Origin: Nitrobacter sp.
GTDB taxonomy: Bacteria; Pseudomonadota; Alphaproteobacteria; Rhizobiales; Xanthobacteraceae
Assembly: GCF_051535215.1 (NCBI RefSeq)
Contig: NZ_JBPPLY010000009.1
Coordinates: 67,417-131,416, forward strand
DNA length: 64,000 bases
Direction of reading: 5' to 3'
This document shows, piece after piece, positions 2,273 through 36,472 of this stretch. The notes under the pieces were generated by a model, which was not told the origin of the DNA, did not search any database, and worked only from the letters and a program-made list of their open reading frames with translations. Numbering within the stretch: position 1 is the stretch's first letter; each line of letters starts with the position of its first letter. The position numbers were made by a program, and so were the translations under genes.

Positions 2273-3204
2273 CAGATGAGCCGCGTGGGCGGCTGAAGCG
2301 GCGTACCGTTCAGAAAGGCGTCGGCCTTCATTGGCGGCTTTCCCGCGCGCTGCAATTCAAGAACGCGGATCGCACCAATCCTGCATGCGATGGTCAACCG
2401 GCTGTCAAGCAATTCGCCGGGTTCGCCAGCACCCTTTGCCAGTTCGCAGCGCAGGATCTTCACGCGTACCTGGTCGCCGTCGAGCGGCATCTCGCACCAG
2501 GCGCCCGGAAACGGCGACAGACCATGAATGTGGCGCAGCACGTCGCGCGCAGCTCTGTTCCAGTCGATCCGCGCCTCAGCCTTGTCGATCTTGGCGGCGT
2601 AGGTGACGCCGTCGTCGCTCTGCTTTTTCAATTGCAATTCGCCGTGCGCCAGCGCGGTCATCGCGCGCACCATGAGATCGGCCCCGAGCGGCGCCAGCGC
2701 GTCATGGAGGTCCGACGCCGTCATCGCATCGGTCACCGCGATCCGCTCGGTCATGGCCACGCCGCCGGTGTCGAGGCCGGCGTCCATCTTCATGACCATG
2801 ACGCCGCTTTCAATGTCGCCGGCCATGATGGCGCGGTTGATCGGGGCGGCGCCGCGCCAGCGCGGCAGCAGCGAGGCATGCAGATTGTAGCAGCCGTATC
2901 GCGGCGCATCGAGGACCGCCTGCGGCAGGATCATGCCATAGGCGACGACCACGGCGGCGTCCGCTCCGTGAGAGCGGAATTCGGCCAGCGCATCCGGCGT
3001 TTTCAGCGTCTTCGGCGTCAGCACCGGAATGCCGAGGCGATGCGCTTCCCGCTCAACCGGGCTCGGTTGCAGCTTCATGCCGCGGCCTGCAGGTCTTGCC
3101 TCGCGGGTGTATACGGCGGCGATCTCATGGCCATCGGCAACGAGATGCAGCAGGGTTGGCACCGCGAAATCCGGCGTGCCCATGAAGATCAGGCGAAGCG
3201 GCAT
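2272..3204 (-). CDS. fmt: Methionyl-tRNA formyltransferase
   Basis: '[14 protein letters not shown]', '[21 protein letters not shown]', 'MDAGLDTG'; lies between def and truA. Confidence 0.97.
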
Positions 3205-3235
3205 TTTCTGAATTCGTACGCGGTGATAGCCCGCC

Positions 3236-3763
3236 CTATTTCGTAGCGAGCTTGGCAGCCTTGGTGAACTTCTTCAGCACGCGGTCACGTTTCAGCTTCG
3301 AGAGGTGATCGACAAACAGCACGCCGTTGAGGTGGTCGATCTCGTGCTGGATGCAGGTGGCGAAAAGACCCTCGGCATCCTCCTCGTGCACCTTGCCGTC
3401 GAGATCGGTAAAGCGGATCCGCACACGCGCCGGCCGTTCGACCTCCTCGTAATATTCGGGGATCGACAGGCAGCCCTCTTCATAGACCGAGAGTTCCTCG
3501 GATGCCGACAGGATTTCCGGGTTGATGAAGACGCGCGGCCGCGGGGTGAGTTCGCCCTCCTCGTCGCGCCGGGCGAGGTCCATGGTGATGATGCGGACGG
3601 GCTGCGCGATCTGGATGCCGGCGAGCCCGATGCCCGGCGCGTCATACATGGTCTCGAACATGTCGTCGGCGAGTTTGCGGACTTCCGGCGTGACTTTTTC
3701 GATCGGCCTGGAAACGAGGCGCAACTGCTTGTCCGGCAGGATGATTATTTCGCGAAGGGCCAT
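3236..3763 (-). CDS. def: Peptide deformylase
   Basis: Motifs GIGLAG(I)[15 protein letters not shown]; start placed at MALREII. Confidence 0.97.
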
Positions 3764-3914
3764 AGCGGGCGATGTAATCCCACGGTCTGTCGGGGTCAAT
3801 CCGTGCGTTGGCGGCCGTCAAACCGTTGATTGGCGAAAAAAAACGCAGCTTTTCGCTCTCTTATAACGTTCCCTTTTCGTTCGCGCTAGCCGCCGAATCG
3901 GGTAAAAAGACCGG

Positions 3915-31318: not shown

Positions 31319-32506
31319 TCAATCGGCCGGTGGCGTCACCAGCGGCTGCACGGTTTTCAGCATCGCCACCAACTGACTTTGCTTGCGGGCGCCGGTCTTG
31401 CGGAAGATGCGTTCGAGATATGTGCGCGCGGTTTTGGTCGTCACGCCGTTCTTGCTGGCGCACTCCGTAAGCGTCAGTCCGCTGGCGAGGTCCGCCGCCA
31501 CCCGCGTCTCCGTCGGGGTCAGATCGAACAGGGCATTGAGAAGACTGGCGGAGGGCACCAGCGCGGTAGGGGTGATCGGAGTGGCGATAATAAGCGTATC
31601 GGCACCGCCGAAGATGTCGTGCGCGGCCCGCCGCAGCGGCAGCAGGTGAACGACGAACGCGGCCTTGCCGCCGATAGCCGGCACTGGAATCGAGCCGACC
31701 GCCGTTTCGTTCTGCATCCGCGTCACCGCCTCCTGAAACAGCCGGTTGGCGTCGCGGTCGGCGATCGCCAGTCCGCCATGGGCAACCGGCAGAAGCGCCG
31801 CGTCCATCCGTTCGAGGTAGGAATTCGCCGCTATCACCCGTCCGTTGGTTGAAAGCACCGCGGCCGGAAGTCCCATCAGTTCAAGCGCGGATGTGGTCGC
31901 CTCGGCCCGCTCGAGATGCAGCCGCCCGGCGACCAGACTGGCGCGGGCCAGATGCGGCCGCAATGCATCGAGTTGCGCGATCTCCTTCTGGCGGTACGTC
32001 CCGTCCTTCATCCATTTCTGAAACACGAAGGTGGCAAGCTCGCCGGTCGGCATGGCGATGGCCGAGCAGAGATGGGCGCCGATCCCGAACTCGCGCAACA
32101 TGACGCGTGCCGGATCGCGGGCGATTTCCTCCGCGCTCATGTAGTCGTCGACCGGAATGAAGCTCGCAGGCTGGAGAGCGCAGGTCTTCTGCACACTGTC
32201 GGAGAATTTCCACATGTCGCCCGTGATGAACTTGTCGAACAAGGCTTTCATGTTCTCCAGCGTCACGCCGCGCGGCGGAGTGGTTTCGTTGAAGAAAAAC
32301 AGTTGTGCGCTGGCGGAGGCGGACAGGTCGCAGGCCTCCTGAAGCACGGAATACCAGCGAATCGGCACGAATGCTGCCTCGTAGATCAGGTCGACAAGGT
32401 CGATCATGGCTGGCGGCGGCTCAATGGGTGCGGAGAGGGCGGAGCAACCTCCGCCGCGGACAGAGGCCACTATCCGATGGCTGCCGATAATCTCAAGTTG
32501 GCTCAT
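31319..32506 (-). CDS. LuxR-type HTH regulator with N-terminal GAF/PAS-like sensing region
   Basis: C-terminal 'FDLTPTETRVAADLASGLTLTECA...TARTYLERIFRKTGARKQSQLV'; N-terminal 'LVDLIYEAAF.P..W'. Start could be 32407. Confidence 0.85.
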   Translation of the reverse strand: MSQLEIIGSHRIVASVRGGGCSALSAPIEPPPAMIDLVDLIYEAAFVPIRWYSVLQEACDLSASASAQLFFFNETTPPRGVTLENMKALFDKFITGDMWKFSDSVQKTCALQPASFIPVDDYMSAEEIARDPARVMLREFGIGAHLCSAIAMPTGELATFVFQKWMKDGTYRQKEIAQLDALRPHLARASLVAGRLHLERAEATTSALELMGLPAAVLSTNGRVIAANSYLERMDAALLPVAHGGLAIADRDANRLFQEAVTRMQNETAVGSIPVPAIGGKAAFVVHLLPLRRAAHDIFGGADTLIIATPITPTALVPSASLLNALFDLTPTETRVAADLASGLTLTECASKNGVTTKTARTYLERIFRKTGARKQSQLVAMLKTVQPLVTPPAD

Positions 32507-32775
32507 TGCCGCACGTCCTTGTCTCGCGGACTCGATATCTTTCGGGGTCACCGATGATCACAAGCTTCTCTGTATGGCGCTCATACGGGCGACGCGGCAG
32601 AGGGTCGTCAGCGCGCGCGGCAGCGATGCGGAGCCTGTTGTGCTCCAGTCACAGCAGCGAAAAACCGGATTCGAACCATTGGGATATTTGCCGATCAGTC
32701 GTCATTTGACGACTGGCCGCAGCCGGCCGTACGGCGGCAATCTGCTGCACGGGAGCAGAAAAGTGAGGAATAATC

Positions 32776-33318
32776 ATGTCCATTTTATTGAAAGCATTTC
32801 GGCTGGCGGCAATTTCAGGATTTCTGGCGGGATCGATCATTGCGACAGCCCCGTCGGCTTCAGCCTTCAGCCTCAACCCCGTTAAGGCCGCAAAAAGCAT
32901 CGGGAAGGTGGCCGGGGGTGCCGTAAAGGGCGTCGGGAAGGTGGCCGGGGATGCCGCAAAGGGCGTCGGGAAGGCTGCAGGCGGAGTAGCCAAGGGCGTC
33001 GGCAAAGTAGCAGGCGGCGCGGTGAAAGTTGTCGGGAACGTCGCCGCCCACACAAGCGGAAAGATTGCGATGGGTGCAATCCGCGCCGGCCAGAAGACCG
33101 TCAAGGTCACCGGCAGAGCCGTCGTTTCCGGGGGCAAGACTTTGGGGAAAGGTGTCAAGACGGCAGCGAACAGCGCCAAGAAGCCACTCGGGGTGATTGG
33201 GCGGAACGCATTGCTGGCGACGCCCGCTGCTCCGGCGATCATGGCCAAACGGGCGGCCGATACTGCCAGACATGGTCCGCGTGCCAGCAGTTTCATGCCG
33301 ACGCTGATCAGGAGATAG
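32776..33318 (+). CDS. Exported, highly cationic Gly/Ala/Val/Lys protein with 11-residue tandem repeats (unknown function)
   Basis: RBS GAGGAA, Sec signal ending ASA, repeats of K(G/S)VGKVAGGA(V/A); about 27 K/R against 2 D and no E in the mature part. Confidence 0.75.
   Translation: MSILLKAFRLAAISGFLAGSIIATAPSASAFSLNPVKAAKSIGKVAGGAVKGVGKVAGDAAKGVGKAAGGVAKGVGKVAGGAVKVVGNVAAHTSGKIAMGAIRAGQKTVKVTGRAVVSGGKTLGKGVKTAANSAKKPLGVIGRNALLATPAAPAIMAKRAADTARHGPRASSFMPTLIRR
32893..33057 (+). repeat. Five degenerate 33-bp coding tandem repeats
   Basis: Units start at 32893, 32926, 32959, 32992 and 33025 (aagggcgtcgggaaggtggccggg...). Confidence 0.85.
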
Positions 33319-33373: not shown

Positions 33374-33967
33374 ATGAAGAGAAACGTCAAACGGACCGTT
33401 GCGGTCATGGTGATGGGCTTGTTCGGAGCCTCCCTTGCCGCCACGACGGATTTCGCTGCAGCGCAGAACCGCATCAATGCGGGGCCTGTCGCGCAAATGC
33501 ACGGCGGCAAGGCGTTTCTGAAGCCGGCGACCAGGTTGCAAGGCATGCGGTCGCAGCTCCAGCGTAATGAGGCTGCCAAAATGCAGCCTCTGACGCCGGG
33601 GCTAGACAAAACGCGCGCAAGCGCGGCTACGCAGAACAGGCAGGCGGTGAATCCGCAACTCAACAAACTTCAATCGATGCAGCAGCAGCTTAACAGCAAT
33701 GCCAACAAGGCGCTGAACCCGCAGCCTCTGCCGCCGGGGCCAGACAAAACGCGCGCAAGCGCGGCTGCGCAGAACAGGCAGGCGGTGAATTCGCAACTCA
33801 ACAAACTTCAATCGACGCAGCAGCAGCTCAACGGCAATGCATTCAACAGCAACGAAAAGAGGCTTCAACAGGCGCAGAGTCGCGCCGATAAAACAAGATC
33901 AATGATCGGCAAGCTTCAATCATCGCAGCAGCAGATCAACAGAAATATCATCGGTAACATGCGCTGA
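33374..33967 (+). CDS. Exported Gln/Asn-rich repeat protein (unknown function)
   Basis: RBS GGAGAA, Sec signal ending AAA; about 29% Q+N in the mature part; repeats 'DKTR...KLQSxQQQ(L/I)NxN' x3; contains 'LNPQPLPPG'. Confidence 0.78.
   Translation: MKRNVKRTVAVMVMGLFGASLAATTDFAAAQNRINAGPVAQMHGGKAFLKPATRLQGMRSQLQRNEAAKMQPLTPGLDKTRASAATQNRQAVNPQLNKLQSMQQQLNSNANKALNPQPLPPGPDKTRASAAAQNRQAVNSQLNKLQSTQQQLNGNAFNSNEKRLQQAQSRADKTRSMIGKLQSSQQQINRNIIGNMR
33583..33843 (+). repeat. 138-bp near-identical tandem duplication (46 aa) in the Q/N-rich gene
   Basis: 'gcagcctctg(a/c)cgccggggc(t/c)agacaaaacgcgcgcaagcgcggct' starts at 33583 and again at 33721. Confidence 0.9.
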
Positions 33968-34010
33968 ACTGAGAGTTAGCGCGCGACTGATTGATCAGAT
34001 GGGGTGGGGA

Positions 34011-36092
34011 ATGGATCGTCGGGAAGCATGCGCCGGCCGCGGGTTGGCGCGGTCGGCTTGGTGTGCGTCGGTTGCTGTTTGGGGCGTGTTTTGGCTGGCG
34101 CAGTTGGATTCAGTGGCGCAGTCGGCCGATATGGCGCTGAAGGCACCTCCGGCTGAAGAGGCCCAGAGCTATCCAGCCTATGGCTGGGCGGGGTGTTATG
34201 TCGGCGCCGGGATGGGGGTCGCGTCTTCGCGTTCCGATTGGGTTTATCGCAACAGCAATCCCTATACCTCCACCGGCAATCTTGATCCGCAGTTGATTGA
34301 CGGTGCCGATTTCAAGGATCGCCGCGGCATCGTCGGCGCACAGGTCGGCTGCAATACGATGGTCTCGGGACCATGGCTTGTCGGCGCCGAACTGTCCTGG
34401 ATGAGCAATCCGCTTCGCCAGGAGAAGAACAACAACTTCGATCCGGCGCAGGGCCAGGCCTTTGTCCCGCTGGAAACCTTCGTCACGACCGACATTCAAT
34501 CCGTCTTCAACCTGACGGCGCGGCTCGGCTATGCCGTCAACGACAACTGGCTGCTGTATATGAAGGGCGGTTACGCCCTTGGCCAGATCCAGACTTCGGG
34601 ATACCTCACGCCGAATTTCGGGATTTTCGACTGGAGCGACACGCGCTGGCACAACGGCTGGACGGTCGGGGCGGGTCTCGAATACCGGCTCTTTCGCAAT
34701 ATCACGGTCGGCGCCGAATACGCCTACACGCGGTTCGAGGGGAAGGATCATGTCGGCCGGCACGAGGTTATCGACACCACCCTCAATGTGCCGGCCAACC
34801 CGGTCGTTCACGGCGTGAGCGCCGACATGCACACGGTGATGGCGCGGGTCAATTTCGGCCTGAGCGATCCTGTCGGCACGCTGGAAAGCCCGCAGCAGGA
34901 TCCGGGCCTTCCGGGTACGTGGTCGGCCTTCATGAGTACCGGTCCGCACTATTCGGCCTGGACCGGCACGCGCGGCGTGAACGTGTTCGCGCCCGATCGC
35001 GGCAAGGGCTATCAGGTTTACACGCCGACGCTGATCGGCATCGACTACGATGATTCCTCCTCAATGAAACTCGAAACTCGTTTCAAGGGCGGTCATGTCT
35101 ACGCGCGGCACGAAACGGCGGGACAGCAGGCGACCTACAACGGTCCGATCGATTCCGAGGCCTCGGTTACTGCGACGCTCCAGAACTTCGAAACGTTTCA
35201 GCCGACGTTTGGCGTCGCCCTCAATATCCCGACCGGCACGTCGTATCTCCCGAACAACCAGCGTTTCGCGCGCATGGATCCCGACCTCGTCGACATCGGA
35301 AGTTATGGCGCCGGCTTCAACGTCAATCCGACGGCGGGGCTGGTTTTCGGCCTGAATGAAAATACCGCACTGTCGGTTTCGGGCGGCTATGCCTGGCAGG
35401 GCAGTTTCATGAGGGAGGGAATAGATCCGTCCGCCGCGACGGGGTTCGGCGTTTTCAACCTCAAGAACCAGATCGATCCGGGCAGCGTCTTTACAGCCAA
35501 CGCCAATCTGAAGACGCAGATCGACAACCTCGCACTTGAGGGATCGTTTGCGTATATGTCGGAAACGGTCGTGAAGGTCGATGGCGTCGCCAACGGCAAG
35601 GCCGGCGATCGTTATGTGAGCAACCTCGTCGCGCAATATCAGTTCGATCCGCAATGGGCGCTGGTGATGAGCGTGTCGCATACATTCCAGGAAAAGAACC
35701 AGATCCCCGGGATCTTCGCTCCTCTTGTGGTGGAGCGGCGCAATTCCAACAGCCATCTCGTGATCGGCTCGGTCGAGCCGTCCTTTCTGATCACCGAACA
35801 GCTGAAGCTCGCGGCGAATTACAGCTTCCTCTACCGTTCGGATAATTTCTACGATCAGATCAATGCTGAATTCATTCCGGCAAAAACCAAGCACTCGGTT
35901 GGTGGGAGCGCGACCTATACGGTCTCGCCGCACGCCTCGATCGAGTTGAAGGGAGGTTATTCCTGGGTGCGTCAGGACACCGGCGCGTTCCTCGAAACCT
36001 CGACCGTTCCGGCGGAAGTACGAGAATATCTTCCGCCGCAGCTAAGTTACCGCGCCTGGACGACCGCGCTGACAGCGAACCTGCAATTCTGA
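34011..36092 (+). CDS. Two-domain outer-membrane protein: Omp25/RopB-like barrel fused to a second beta-barrel
   Basis: Signal then 'ADMALKAPP', 'WAGCYVGAG', 'GAQVGCN', 'ARLGYA...LLYMKGG', 'GWTVGAGLEY', 'TVMARVNF'; Pro-rich linker; about 390 aa of amphipathic strands ending 'ALTANLQF'. Start could be 33999. Confidence 0.8.
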   Translation: MDRREACAGRGLARSAWCASVAVWGVFWLAQLDSVAQSADMALKAPPAEEAQSYPAYGWAGCYVGAGMGVASSRSDWVYRNSNPYTSTGNLDPQLIDGADFKDRRGIVGAQVGCNTMVSGPWLVGAELSWMSNPLRQEKNNNFDPAQGQAFVPLETFVTTDIQSVFNLTARLGYAVNDNWLLYMKGGYALGQIQTSGYLTPNFGIFDWSDTRWHNGWTVGAGLEYRLFRNITVGAEYAYTRFEGKDHVGRHEVIDTTLNVPANPVVHGVSADMHTVMARVNFGLSDPVGTLESPQQDPGLPGTWSAFMSTGPHYSAWTGTRGVNVFAPDRGKGYQVYTPTLIGIDYDDSSSMKLETRFKGGHVYARHETAGQQATYNGPIDSEASVTATLQNFETFQPTFGVALNIPTGTSYLPNNQRFARMDPDLVDIGSYGAGFNVNPTAGLVFGLNENTALSVSGGYAWQGSFMREGIDPSAATGFGVFNLKNQIDPGSVFTANANLKTQIDNLALEGSFAYMSETVVKVDGVANGKAGDRYVSNLVAQYQFDPQWALVMSVSHTFQEKNQIPGIFAPLVVERRNSNSHLVIGSVEPSFLITEQLKLAANYSFLYRSDNFYDQINAEFIPAKTKHSVGGSATYTVSPHASIELKGGYSWVRQDTGAFLETSTVPAEVREYLPPQLSYRAWTTALTANLQF

Positions 36093-36103
36093 GAGGATAG
36101 AAA

Positions 36104-36472
36104 ATGCGCTACGCGATCGCTATCACCTCGGCGGCATGCGGGGGACTGATGTGGGCGTTCACTGCAGGCGCCTTTGCGAAACCCGCACAACCTGCGCCCG
36201 CCTCGCCCCAAAGGGCCGTCCAGGCGCCAAAACCGCCTCAGCGCTGCCTGCGCGCACTCGATGGCAGCTGTACCAAACTGGCGGTCGTCGAATCCGTGCG
36301 GCGGCGTGCGATAATTTTCTCGACGTTGCGCGTGTCCTATTACGGCACCCCGGCGGGAACGATACCGGGAGGCATCGGGATCGAGCGTTTCTTCCGCGAT
36401 GATCCCATCCTGTTCGGGCTGCCGACGGTCGTTTACGGTCCGGGACCCTGCTGTATCCTGCGAACCAGATGA
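36104..36472 (+). CDS. Small exported protein with Pro-rich linker and four Cys in the mature part (unknown function)
   Basis: RBS GAGGA 11 nt after the OMP stop; Sec signal ending AFA; 'CLRALDGSC' and 'PCCIL'. Confidence 0.65.
   Translation: MRYAIAITSAACGGLMWAFTAGAFAKPAQPAPASPQRAVQAPKPPQRCLRALDGSCTKLAVVESVRRRAIIFSTLRVSYYGTPAGTIPGGIGIERFFRDDPILFGLPTVVYGPGPCCILRTR

What the first reader, a model, noticed from the sequence alone, without database searches (positions are those of the whole stretch)
33374..33967. Q/N-rich exported protein with a recent 138-bp duplication and a C-terminus recalling T3SS needle subunits
Seen: about 48 Q+N in about 167 mature residues, only 5 acidic residues, two near-identical 46-aa units (DNA period 138 bp from 33583) and a third shortened copy ('DKTRSMIGKLQSSQQQINRN'). 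The units are joined by 'ALNPQPLPPG', and the protein ends 'RLQQAQSRADKTRSMIGKLQSSQQQINRNIIGNMR'. Established: functional amyloid subunits are Q/N-rich repeats, and PrgI/MxiH needle subunits end in '...AAIIQNFR'. Inference: a polymerising subunit, either cross-beta or (given the L..LQS.QQQL heptad-like spacing) a helical filament. A needle-like C-terminal helix on a Sec-exported protein would be unusual. The needle resemblance rests on 6 terminal residues and is weak.
Basis: partly seen in the sequence, partly recalled or inferred. Interest (0 to 1): 0.62.

Follow-up and report, generated by a model that had tools for sequence, protein, structure and literature searches.

The report
Exported basic repeat protein, NPQPLPP family
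This Nitrobacter gene encodes a real, secreted, very basic, mostly helical repeat protein that is not a needle or curli-type subunit but a fast-evolving member of a large, unannotated class of proteins built around an almost invariant 'ALNPQPLPP' motif, here encoded in an operon with an unusual outer-membrane barrel; its function is still unknown.

Summary
The ORF 33374-33967 (+) encodes 197 aa with a Sec signal peptide. The mature part has 48 Q+N, 24 K+R and 5 D+E. A 138-bp tandem repeat covers 33583-33840 (1.9 copies, 94%), followed by a third, diverged unit.

The needle and amyloid reading is not supported. Pfam, NCBIfam and PDB sequence and profile searches gave no hit. The genome has no needle-family gene and no T3SS secretin above cut-off. 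AlphaFold predicts helices, with a heptad-like A/V/L/L/Q/L stripe.

What it is: the Nitrobacter branch of an unannotated class of hundreds of proteins carrying repeats of 'ALNPQPLPP'. About half have signal peptides, and those are strongly cationic and often end in a Q-rich basic tail. The Nitrobacter Q/N-rich units are duplicates of motif plus tail.

The gene sits in a probable operon: 180-aa cationic K/G-repeat protein, this gene, a 697-aa two-domain outer-membrane protein (OMP) and a 122-aa Cys protein. A LuxR-type gene is usually divergent. The set occurs in 3 of 23 Nitrobacter genomes and in more distant Hyphomicrobiales-like contigs. Unit number varies from 0 to 3. dN/dS is 0.54-0.73 against 0.08-0.19 for the neighbours in the same pairs (K/G gene 0.57 in the closest pair).

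Most likely it is a variable envelope or surface accessory (cargo or partner) of the barrel. The mechanism is inferred, not shown.

The parts
31319..32551 (-). Divergently oriented LuxR-type regulator (410 aa, C-terminal GerE HTH)
   Evidence: Pfam GerE E=7.3e-6. The same gene in the same position occurs in G021 at 93.6% aa identity. In the distant locus L022 it carries PAS_4 and GerE. It is absent from the G015 lineage.
32776..33318 (+). 180-aa Sec-exported, strongly cationic K/G/A/V 11-mer repeat protein; first gene of the probable operon
   Evidence: ORF and sequence. It co-occurs with the target gene in exactly G000, G015 and G021. A 132-aa homologue lies upstream of P0013 in L022, and a 131-aa gene lies upstream of P0018.
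33374..33967 (+). Target gene: 197-aa exported Q/N-rich, polycationic NPQPLPP-motif repeat protein (P0001)
   Evidence: Orthologues. No family, PDB or literature match.
33374..33463 (+). Sec signal peptide (aa 1-30, predicted cleavage after AAA)
   Evidence: Read directly from the sequence: n-region with 4 K/R, hydrophobic core, AxA site. Conserved in all orthologues.
33464..33580 (+). Conserved mature N-terminal region (aa 31-69, QNRINAGPVAQMHGGKAFLKPATRLQGMRSQLQRNEAAK)
   Evidence: Most invariant columns of alignment A1 lie here. AF2 confidence is low in this region.
33578..33607 (+). Degenerate first motif (aa 69-78, KMQPLTPGLD; other orthologues have KALNPQPLPPGPD)
   Evidence: Alignment A1.
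33583..33840 (+). 138-bp tandem repeat, 1.9 copies, 94% identical (units of 46 aa: motif + about 33-aa amphipathic Q/N-rich helix)
   Evidence: TRF, the repeat finder D1, heptad analysis.
33710..33742 (+). Canonical family motif ALNPQPLPPGP (aa 113-123), non-helical linker in the model
   Evidence: AF2 shows no secondary structure at 115-124. The motif is near-invariant in 499 instances from 127 other proteins.
33854..33964 (+). C-terminal unit (aa 161-197, EKRLQQAQSRADKTRSMIGKLQSSQQQINRNIIGNMR): diverged copy of the repeat helix, equivalent to the family's C-terminal tail
   Evidence: the repeat finder D2, third copy at 84%. Best-predicted part of the AF2 model, pLDDT 72-84. Comparable tails in relatives.
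33999..36092 (+). 697-aa two-domain outer-membrane protein (N-terminal small OMP_b-brl barrel + C-terminal BBP2/OmpL-like barrel), starting 31 nt after the target's stop
   Evidence: Pfam OMP_b-brl 8.7e-17 and BBP2 1.9e-6. Same distribution as the target. Follows NPQPLPP proteins in L020 (62% identity) and in L025. The AF2 model failed, pLDDT 33.
36104..36472 (+). 122-aa exported Cys-containing protein, starting 11 nt after the OMP stop; conserved partner of the OMP
   Evidence: Homologues directly after the OMP in G015 and G021, L025/L031 and Bradyrhizobium sp. REEB70 L030, and L048 and L052.

Best explanation
The gene encodes a Sec-exported, Cys-free, polycationic (net about +19), mostly alpha-helical modular protein.

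Architecture:
- a signal peptide;
- a conserved basic N-terminal segment;
- one or more copies of a proline motif, (K)ALNPQPLPPGPD;
- after each motif, an amphipathic Q/N-rich helix of about 33 residues with a heptad-like A/V/L/L/Q/L stripe;
- a last unit that serves as the C-terminal tail and ends in Arg.

It is the Nitrobacter branch of a large, unannotated class of 'NPQPLPP-repeat' proteins. In Nitrobacter the short spacers typical of the class have been replaced by duplicates of motif plus C-terminal tail. This is what makes the protein Q/N-rich.

It is probably co-transcribed with a second cationic repeat protein, a 697-aa two-domain outer-membrane barrel and a 122-aa disulfide-type protein. 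A LuxR-type regulator is usually divergent.

My best mechanistic reading is inferred, not shown. The barrel and the 122-aa protein are the conserved machinery. The two cationic repeat proteins are its variable accessory partners or cargo. After Sec export the protein stays in the envelope or is displayed at the surface. It would be held by its conserved ends (N-segment, motif, C-terminal helix), while the repeated helices act as an expandable spacer or valency module that binds anionic envelope or matrix polymers.

Unit number changes by unequal recombination, and the protein evolves much faster than the barrel and the 122-aa gene beside it.
For: Shown:
- ORF, signal peptide, composition and repeat.
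- Predicted helices 79-114 and 125-196 with a non-helical motif linker, and a heptad stripe.
- The only relatives found are motif proteins: 19 in an exhaustive HMM search of 1.8 billion representatives, 166 with P0015 and 671 with profile A3.
- None has a name. Pfam annotation is absent except for occasional fused Peptidase_C2 and a few other precomputed domains such as PEP-CTERM.
- About half have signal peptides. Those have a median net charge of +14, and 33 of 109 end in R.
- Synteny of the K/G protein, the motif protein, the OMP and the 122-aa protein holds in G000, G015 and G021, in L048-L052 and, in variant form, in L020, L022 and L025.
- The OMP and the 122-aa protein occur without a motif protein in a Bradyrhizobium MAG. 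That fits a split into machinery and accessory.
- Gaps between the genes are 55, 31 and 11 nt, with no + strand terminator between them.
- dN/dS is 0.54-0.73 for this gene against 0.08-0.15 for the OMP, 0.10-0.15 for the 122-aa gene and 0.07 for ispB. dN is 5-9 times higher than for the OMP and the 122-aa gene in the two distant pairs. The K/G gene is 0.16-0.19 in those pairs and 0.57 in the closest pair.
- Unit number is 0, 1, 2 or 3 in orthologues whose N- and C-terminal ends stay alignable (N-region 74-88% identical between Nitrobacter lineages; two C-terminal variants).
Against: - There are no localisation, expression or interaction data.
- The AF2 model of the protein has only mean pLDDT 57 from an 8-sequence alignment. 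The OMP model failed with pLDDT 33, so nothing shows that the barrel has a channel able to pass or hold this protein.
- Distant motif proteins stand alone, without an OMP neighbour. The motif's function therefore cannot depend on this barrel.
- High dN/dS could simply be relaxed constraint on a low-complexity protein.
- Some copy-number differences could be assembly collapse of the repeat. G015 has 2 units and L048/L049/L051 have 1, yet they are 100% identical across the three flanking genes (one mismatch in L049's OMP).
Confidence: 0.4

Rival explanations
1. Dedicated periplasmic holdase or chaperone (working like Skp or Spy/CpxP) for the unusual two-barrel OMP. On this reading it is a small, basic, helical, exported protein that keeps the 697-aa barrel precursor soluble on its way to BAM.
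For: It is small, strongly basic, helical and Sec-exported, and it is encoded 31 nt upstream of an OMP. skp also lies next to bamA in many bacteria (own knowledge).
Against: There is no hit to OmpH/Skp, LTXXQ/CpxP or Metal_resist profiles. Unit number is variable and dN/dS is 0.54-0.73, which is unusual for a chaperone. The OMP occurs without it in Bradyrhizobium sp. REEB70. Related motif proteins occur without any OMP.
Confidence: 0.12
2. Envelope stress-protective hydrophilin. Together with the upstream 11-mer K/G repeat protein (LEA-like periodicity), it would be a highly hydrophilic protein that protects the periplasm or outer membrane during osmotic or desiccation stress, under LuxR-type control.
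For: Extreme hydrophilicity, no Cys or Trp, and few aromatic residues. The repeat number is tolerant to change.
Against: There is no LEA or hydrophilin family hit and no expression data. This reading does not explain the invariant proline motif or the tight linkage to the barrel.
Confidence: 0.12
3. Functional-amyloid or other fibre subunit exported through the adjacent barrel, with curli- or Fap-like logic. A Q/N-rich repeat subunit and a second small subunit would polymerise outside the cell.
For: It is a Q/N-rich imperfect repeat. The operon has a second small exported repeat protein, an OM barrel and a small accessory protein, with a divergent LuxR-family regulator as in csgD-csgBA (the comparison is from own knowledge). 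Repeat or linker length varies between strains, as reported for FapC (own knowledge).
Against: There is no Curlin_rpt or other amyloid family hit, and the barrel is OMP_b-brl + BBP2, not CsgG or FapF. The units are predicted helical, rich in A/L/Q/K/R and interrupted by Pro-rich linkers. A net charge of +19 disfavors self-stacking. Orthologue P0008 has no internal unit at all.
Confidence: 0.1
4. T3SS needle-like helical filament subunit.
For: Only a terminal '...IIGNMR', which loosely recalls needle C-termini. One non-significant PDB hit to a T3SS stalk protein, EscO, at E=8.8.
Against: There is no PF09392 hit in the protein or anywhere in the genome. TIGR02516 gives only a sub-cut-off generic secretin. 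The protein has a Sec signal peptide and is 2-3 times needle length. The terminal motif is not conserved among relatives.
Confidence: 0.02

Closest known systems
Unnamed 'NPQPLPP-repeat' proteins (e.g. hypothetical proteins of Candidatus Obscuribacterales K2W95_28590, Solirubrobacteraceae VGJ32_10120, Candidatus Angelobacter VF532_14965; metagenomic P0012, P0013, P0017, P0018)
   Same: They share the near-invariant (V/A)(A/S)LNPQPLPP motif repeated with variable spacers. The signal-peptide subclass also shares polycationic, Cys-free composition and a Q-rich C-terminal tail ending in R/K. P0012, P0013 and P0017 share the OMP, K/G-protein or LuxR neighbourhood.
   Different: Typical members have 17-30-aa spacers of unrelated sequence. 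Nitrobacter has 43-51-aa spacers that are Q/N-rich helices derived from the tail. The window's copy has only one canonical motif and one degenerate one. Many members lack a signal peptide or an OMP neighbour.
Curli (CsgA/CsgB with CsgD, CsgG) and Fap (FapB/FapC with FapF) functional-amyloid operons
   Same: The operon logic is similar: small Sec-exported Q/N-rich repeat proteins, an outer-membrane protein and a LuxR-family regulator nearby. The repeat content is variable.
   Different: There is no sequence or profile relationship. The units are predicted alpha-helical, have proline linkers and are strongly basic. The barrel is of a different family (OMP_b-brl + BBP2).
Braun's lipoprotein Lpp and periplasmic helical chaperones (Skp/OmpH, Spy/CpxP)
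   Same: These are small, exported, helical, heptad-patterned envelope proteins rich in A, Q, N and basic residues. They have a basic C-terminal residue (Lpp) or are encoded next to an OMP gene (Skp).
   Different: This protein has no lipobox Cys and ends in Arg, not Lys. There are no profile hits. The modules are Pro-linked, the copy number varies and evolution is fast.
T3SS needle subunits (SctF family: PrgI, MxiH)
   Same: Only a short helical C-terminus ending in a basic residue.
   Different: The protein has a Sec signal and is 197 aa. There is no PF09392 match, no T3SS in the genome, and the terminal residues are not conserved in relatives.

Membership tests
T3SS needle subunit SctF (Pfam PF09392 T3SS_needle_F) | Profile match to the needle family | tested here: not met
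   hmmscan against Pfam with max E=1 lists no PF09392 hit. PDB phmmer and profile searches list no needle protein.
T3SS needle subunit SctF (Pfam PF09392 T3SS_needle_F) | About 70-90-aa helical hairpin secreted by the T3SS itself, without a Sec signal peptide | tested here: not met
   The protein is 197 aa with a classical N-terminal Sec signal peptide conserved in all orthologues.
T3SS needle subunit SctF (Pfam PF09392 T3SS_needle_F) | A T3SS injectisome encoded in the same genome | tested here: not met
   PF09392 gives 0 matches in G000. TIGR02516 (SctC secretin) gives only a 66.7-bit match against a cut-off of 238. The genome is 93% complete, so absence is not absolute.
T3SS needle subunit SctF (Pfam PF09392 T3SS_needle_F) | Conserved C-terminal residues needed for polymerisation | tested here: inconclusive
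   The endings are NIIGNMR, SNM(M/I)GR, NRNFAR, QRMMMGR and SRQKLR. Only the terminal Arg and a nearby hydrophobic residue recur.
Curli subunits CsgA/CsgB (Pfam PF07012 Curlin_rpt) | Curlin repeat profile match, and CsgG/E/F-type secretion partners nearby | tested here: not met
   There is no Curlin_rpt hit. The neighbours are OMP_b-brl/BBP2 and family-less small proteins.
Fap functional amyloid (FapC with FapF) | FapC-type repeats, a FapF barrel and a FapD C39 peptidase in the operon | tested here: not met
   No such families were reported for the protein or its four neighbours in Pfam or NCBIfam. No peptidase gene lies in the cluster. Fold-level similarity of the barrel could not be tested because the model failed.
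Periplasmic chaperones Skp/OmpH (PF03938) and Spy/CpxP (LTXXQ, PF07813) | Profile match | tested here: not met
   Neither is listed at E<=1. HMMER filters drop most matches above about 0.1.
Braun lipoprotein Lpp (PF04728) | Lipobox Cys at the mature N-terminus and a C-terminal Lys for peptidoglycan linkage | tested here: not met
   The protein has no Cys and ends in Arg. There is no profile hit.
NPQPLPP-repeat proteins (unnamed class defined here) | At least one canonical (A/S)LNPQPLPP motif | tested here: met
   ALNPQPLPPGP lies at aa 113-123, with a degenerate KMQPLTPGLD at 69-78. The motif is invariant in alignment A3. Logo.
NPQPLPP-repeat proteins (unnamed class defined here) | Signal-peptide subclass: Sec signal, polycationic Cys-free body, C-terminal Q-rich tail ending in R/K | tested here: met
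NPQPLPP-repeat proteins (unnamed class defined here) | Hyphomicrobiales-type neighbourhood: second cationic repeat protein, about 670-700-aa OMP, about 115-122-aa Cys protein, LuxR-type regulator | tested here: met

The most novel reading that the evidence does not exclude
The near-invariant ALNPQPLPP motif would be a docking or processing signal of a widespread, unrecognised class of secreted polycationic proteins. In Nitrobacter and related Hyphomicrobiales, these proteins and the K/G-repeat protein would be cargo of a dedicated, previously undescribed outer-membrane export or display route. That route would be formed by the two-barrel 697-aa OMP and its 122-aa partner. The resulting cationic surface layer or fibre would vary in repeat number because it is exposed to phages, predators or the biofilm matrix.
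Probability: 0.15. Interest if true: 0.8.

Novelty: categorically new. Interest (0 to 1): 0.5.

Why it matters
The motif class comprised 671 proteins at E<=0.1 in one capped search. They come from Proteobacteria, Acidobacteria, Actinobacteria, Planctomycetes, Verrucomicrobia and Melainabacteria-like MAGs. None has a Pfam or NCBIfam model, a solved relative or a paper in the searched library.

A 9-10-residue proline motif that stays invariant across such distances while the spacers are free to change is a strong sign of a specific partner or enzyme that nobody has identified.

The Nitrobacter locus offers a compact test bed of four genes and a regulator. It links the motif proteins to an unusual two-barrel OMP. 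Nitrobacter is a key nitrite oxidiser in wastewater biofilms, where cationic surface or matrix proteins could affect aggregation.

If the protein is only a fast-drifting periplasmic filler, the finding is of modest interest. Even so, the motif family deserves a name and a model.

'Categorically new' here means that the protein fits no described family or system. It does not mean that a new mechanism has been shown.

Tried and rejected
- **Needle link:** rejected, see the membership test.
- **AlphaFold of the 697-aa OMP:** run with a 3-sequence alignment, it gave pLDDT 33. Only the N-terminal 8-strand barrel is hinted at. No fold search was run on it, nor on the pLDDT-57 model of the target, because long single helices give meaningless matches.
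- **Literature:** 'NPQPLPP' and five variants, searched inside words, gave 0 relevant papers.
- **Earlier scan notes:** nothing on this family.
- **Expression and read-level checks:** This left unresolved whether the gene is expressed and whether the repeat has collapsed in some assemblies.
- **Context of distant motif proteins:** P0015, P0071, P0045 and P0027 share no recurrent neighbour, so the OMP link is specific to the alphaproteobacterial subclass.
- **Simple-insertion test:** in three Nitrobacter genomes lacking the module, ispB has entirely different neighbours. No clean empty site could be shown.
- **Shared C-terminal Arg as a signal:** all three small module proteins here, and most in L025, end in R. 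About 11-13% of likely genes in this genome do too. This is suggestive only.
Full report
**1.

The + strand ORF 33374-33967 encodes 197 aa. A GGAG lies 7-13 nt before the ATG. The first 30 residues form a classical Sec signal peptide (MKRNVKRT / VAVMVMGLFGASLAA / TTDFAAA|Q).

The mature part has 48 Q+N, 24 K+R, 5 D+E, 10 P, 2 aromatic residues and no Cys. It is therefore also very basic, with a net charge of about +19.

Tandem Repeats Finder reports a 138-bp period at 33583-33840 with 1.9 copies, 94% matches and no indels. A third copy of the 'KLQS.QQQ.N' core, 84% identical, lies at 33910-33946.

The gene is coding rather than an accident of composition:
- orthologues keep the frame through indels that are multiples of whole units;
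- dN/dS is below 1.

One database gene call (P0004, 156 aa) starts at Met42 and misses the signal peptide.

**2. It matches nothing known, and the needle idea fails**

Pfam and NCBIfam list only noise at E of 0.06 or above. PDB searches with the sequence and with a family profile give only antibody light chains and similar hits at E>0.1. One hit is to the T3SS stalk protein EscO at E=8.8, which is not significant.

The genome has no match to the needle family PF09392. For the T3SS secretin model TIGR02516 it has only a generic secretin at 66.7 bits, against a cut-off of 238.

The protein has a Sec signal peptide, which needle subunits lack. No curli, Fap, Skp, Spy/CpxP or Lpp profile is hit either.

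**3. Predicted structure**

AlphaFold2 with the 8-sequence family alignment gives mean pLDDT 57:
- helices at 79-114 and 125-196, with the C-terminal 30 residues at pLDDT 72-84;
- a non-helical linker at the proline motif (115-124);
- a poorly defined N-terminal 31-78.

Each unit has a continuous heptad register with A-A-R-V-L-L-Q-L-A-A at the a/d positions. Two of the three units (79-114 and the C-terminal 161-197) have their strongest hydrophobic moment at about 100 degrees; the middle unit does not. These are weakly amphipathic, coiled-coil-capable helices, not strand-turn-strand amyloid units.

**4. Its true relatives are 'NPQPLPP-repeat' proteins**

Only seven close homologues exist among 5.8 billion clusters.

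An exhaustive HMM search of 1.8 billion representatives found 19 proteins. Apart from the Nitrobacter-type homologues among them, what they share with the query is 'LNPQPLPPGP', repeated 1-8 times with unrelated spacers, and usually a short Q-rich basic C-terminal tail.

Word-seeded searches then retrieved 166 proteins and 671 proteins. All are 'hypothetical', and only a few carry a precomputed Pfam domain. They come from MAGs labelled Obscuribacterales, Solirubrobacteraceae, Phycisphaeraceae, Didemnitutus and Angelobacter, among others. About nine clusters fuse the repeats to a calpain-type Peptidase_C2 domain.

Features of the class:
- In 499 motif instances from 127 non-Nitrobacter proteins, the core is (V/A)(A/S)-L-N-P-Q-P-L-P-P, with L, L, P and P at 97-99%. 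The word index favours exact motifs, so this is partly biased.
- The median period is 23 aa.
- About half of the proteins have a signal peptide by a crude test.
- The signal-peptide proteins have a median net charge of +14, and 33 of 109 end in Arg.
- No paper in the library contains the motif.

In the signal-peptide subclass the architecture is: signal peptide, a basic N-region ending '..LQL(R/K)xNxxAK', then [ALNPQPLPPGPD + spacer] repeated, then the tail 'DK..KLN....Q..Q...R'.

In Nitrobacter the spacers are themselves copies of the tail. Compare the internal 'DKTRTSAAAQNRQAVSSQVNKLQSMQRQINSNASKAL' with the terminal '...QINSNVLKSNMIGR' in P0010.

The Q/N richness is a lineage-specific by-product of duplicating motif plus tail.

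**5. Genomic setting**

The genus is Nitrobacter, from the record titles of the orthologous loci.

The gene, the upstream 180-aa K/G-repeat protein and the downstream 697-aa OMP occur together in exactly 3 of 23 Nitrobacter genomes. A fourth genome has an OMP fragment.

The order is: K/G protein, this gene, OMP, 122-aa Cys protein. The gaps are 55, 31 and 11 nt, with no + strand terminator between genes. A LuxR-type gene is divergent in G000 and G021.

The G015 lineage lacks the regulator and has an integrase gene after the module. G015 corresponds to Nitrobacter sp. 62-23.

More distant versions keep the logic:
- L022 has the LuxR gene, a 132-aa K/G homologue, P0013 and a paralogue.
- In L020, P0017 is followed by an OMP that is 62% identical.
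- L025/L031 ('Proteobacteria bacterium OH_HDB_37') has P0012, a different 167-aa cationic 20-mer repeat protein, a 673-aa OMP, a 114-aa Cys protein, three small exported paralogues of about 104 aa and a GerE/AraC regulator.
- A Bradyrhizobium MAG has the OMP and the Cys protein without any motif protein nearby.

The barrel and the Cys protein therefore look like the conserved core. The cationic repeat proteins look like exchangeable accessories.

Motif proteins from other phyla stand alone.

**6. Evolutionary behaviour**

Orthologues have 0 (P0008), 1 (P0003, P0005), 2 (window, G015) or 3 (G021) helix units. The ends remain alignable (N-region 74-88% identical between Nitrobacter lineages) and the C-terminal unit comes in two variants.

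P0003 is a hybrid of the window's unit 1 and unit 2, as expected from unequal recombination.

| Gene | dN/dS | Pairs |
|---|---|---|
| This gene | 0.54-0.73 | all three |
| OMP | 0.08-0.15 | all three |
| 122-aa gene | 0.10-0.15 | all three |
| ispB | 0.07 | G000 vs G021 only |
| K/G gene | 0.16-0.19 | the two distant pairs |
| K/G gene | 0.57 | closest pair |

In the two distant pairs dN for this gene is 5-9 times that of the OMP and the 122-aa gene.

A caveat applies to the copy-number differences. G015 (2 units) and the contigs L048, L049 and L051 (1 unit) are 100% identical over the three flanking genes, apart from one mismatch in L049's OMP. This is either very recent copy-number change or assembly collapse of a 153-bp repeat.

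**7. Interpretation**

Shown:
- It is an exported, polycationic, helix-rich modular protein of a new motif class.
- It lies in a conserved envelope gene set with an OMP.
- It has a variable unit number and evolves fast.

Inferred (confidence about 0.4): it is an accessory partner or cargo of the barrel and Cys-protein pair. It would stay in the envelope or reach the surface. Its conserved ends and motif would mediate binding, and the repeated cationic helices would provide length or valency towards anionic polymers.

Rivals:
- a Skp/Spy-like dedicated chaperone (0.12);
- a periplasmic hydrophilin acting with the LEA-like neighbour (0.12);
- a curli/Fap-like fibre subunit (0.10);
- a needle-like filament (0.02).

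The remaining probability is 'something else', including a processed precursor whose motif is a cleavage or modification site.

**8. Verdict**

The finding is real and unexplained, but for reasons other than those proposed. The 'joint' ALNPQPLPPG is the important feature. The needle resemblance is chance.

Interest is moderate (0.5). It would be higher if the OMP-coupled export or display reading, or a specific motif partner, is confirmed.

Noticed in passing
window 33999-36092: The 697-aa OMP combines an N-terminal OMP_b-brl (Omp25/RopB-like) barrel and a C-terminal BBP2/OmpL-like barrel in one polypeptide. Its predicted mature N-terminus is 'AD' (..VAQS|ADMALK). From memory, this is the alanyl-aspartyl motif through which Rhizobiales OMPs are cross-linked to peptidoglycan. 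The L020 homologue also starts 'AD'. The AF2 model failed (pLDDT 33).
   Followed up: partly
window 32776-33318: This is a 180-aa exported protein with five 11-residue K/G/A/V repeats and a conserved C-terminal part (..GVKTAANSAKKPLGVIGRNALLATPAAPAIMAKR..HGPRAS..IRR). It has the same narrow distribution as the target. A shorter homologue (132 aa, fewer repeats) occurs in L022. In L025 the equivalent position is held by an unrelated cationic 20-mer repeat protein (KTLPRDEKAGFPSGQAKSKP, five copies).
   Followed up: partly
window 33318, 33967, 36472 (C-termini); L025 8001-12799: Nearly all small exported proteins of these modules end in Arg or Arg-Arg..LIRR..GNMR..LRTR here, and ..QKLR..KTKR..PVRR..PLRR..PARR in L025. 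About 11-13% of likely genes in this genome end in R. This could be a sorting or protease-protection feature. It remains unexplained.
   Followed up: partly
L048 6307-6504; L009 (G015) about 2619-3782: In the Nitrobacter sp. 62-23 lineage the module is followed by a phage-type integrase gene. The LuxR-type regulator is replaced there by a SnoaL-like gene and an 85-aa gene. In three Nitrobacter genomes without the module, ispB has entirely different neighbours. The module may lie in a variable or island-like region.
   Followed up: partly
proteins P0042, P0053, P0058, P0068, P0072, P0077, P0085, P0087 (not in window): In some bacteria, for example a Didemnitutus MAG, three to six NPQPLPP repeats are fused to the N-terminus of a calpain-type C2 cysteine protease domain (PF00648). 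One member carries a PEP-CTERM domain. These fusions might give a handle on the motif's function.
   Followed up: no
L025 11743-12799: Three tandem paralogues of about 104 aa encode small exported proteins downstream of the OMP and Cys-protein pair. Their C-terminal 'SYKLNASAL.PRQVAKP.RR' resembles the 'DKAKLNASALKQQ..R' tails of NPQPLPP proteins P0018 and P0012. The tail may therefore be a module shared between otherwise different proteins.
   Followed up: no
window 33374-33499: A public gene call for this locus (P0004, 156 aa) starts at Met42 and so omits the signal peptide. The 697-aa OMP is called as 668 aa in related contigs, which truncates its signal peptide.
   Followed up: yes
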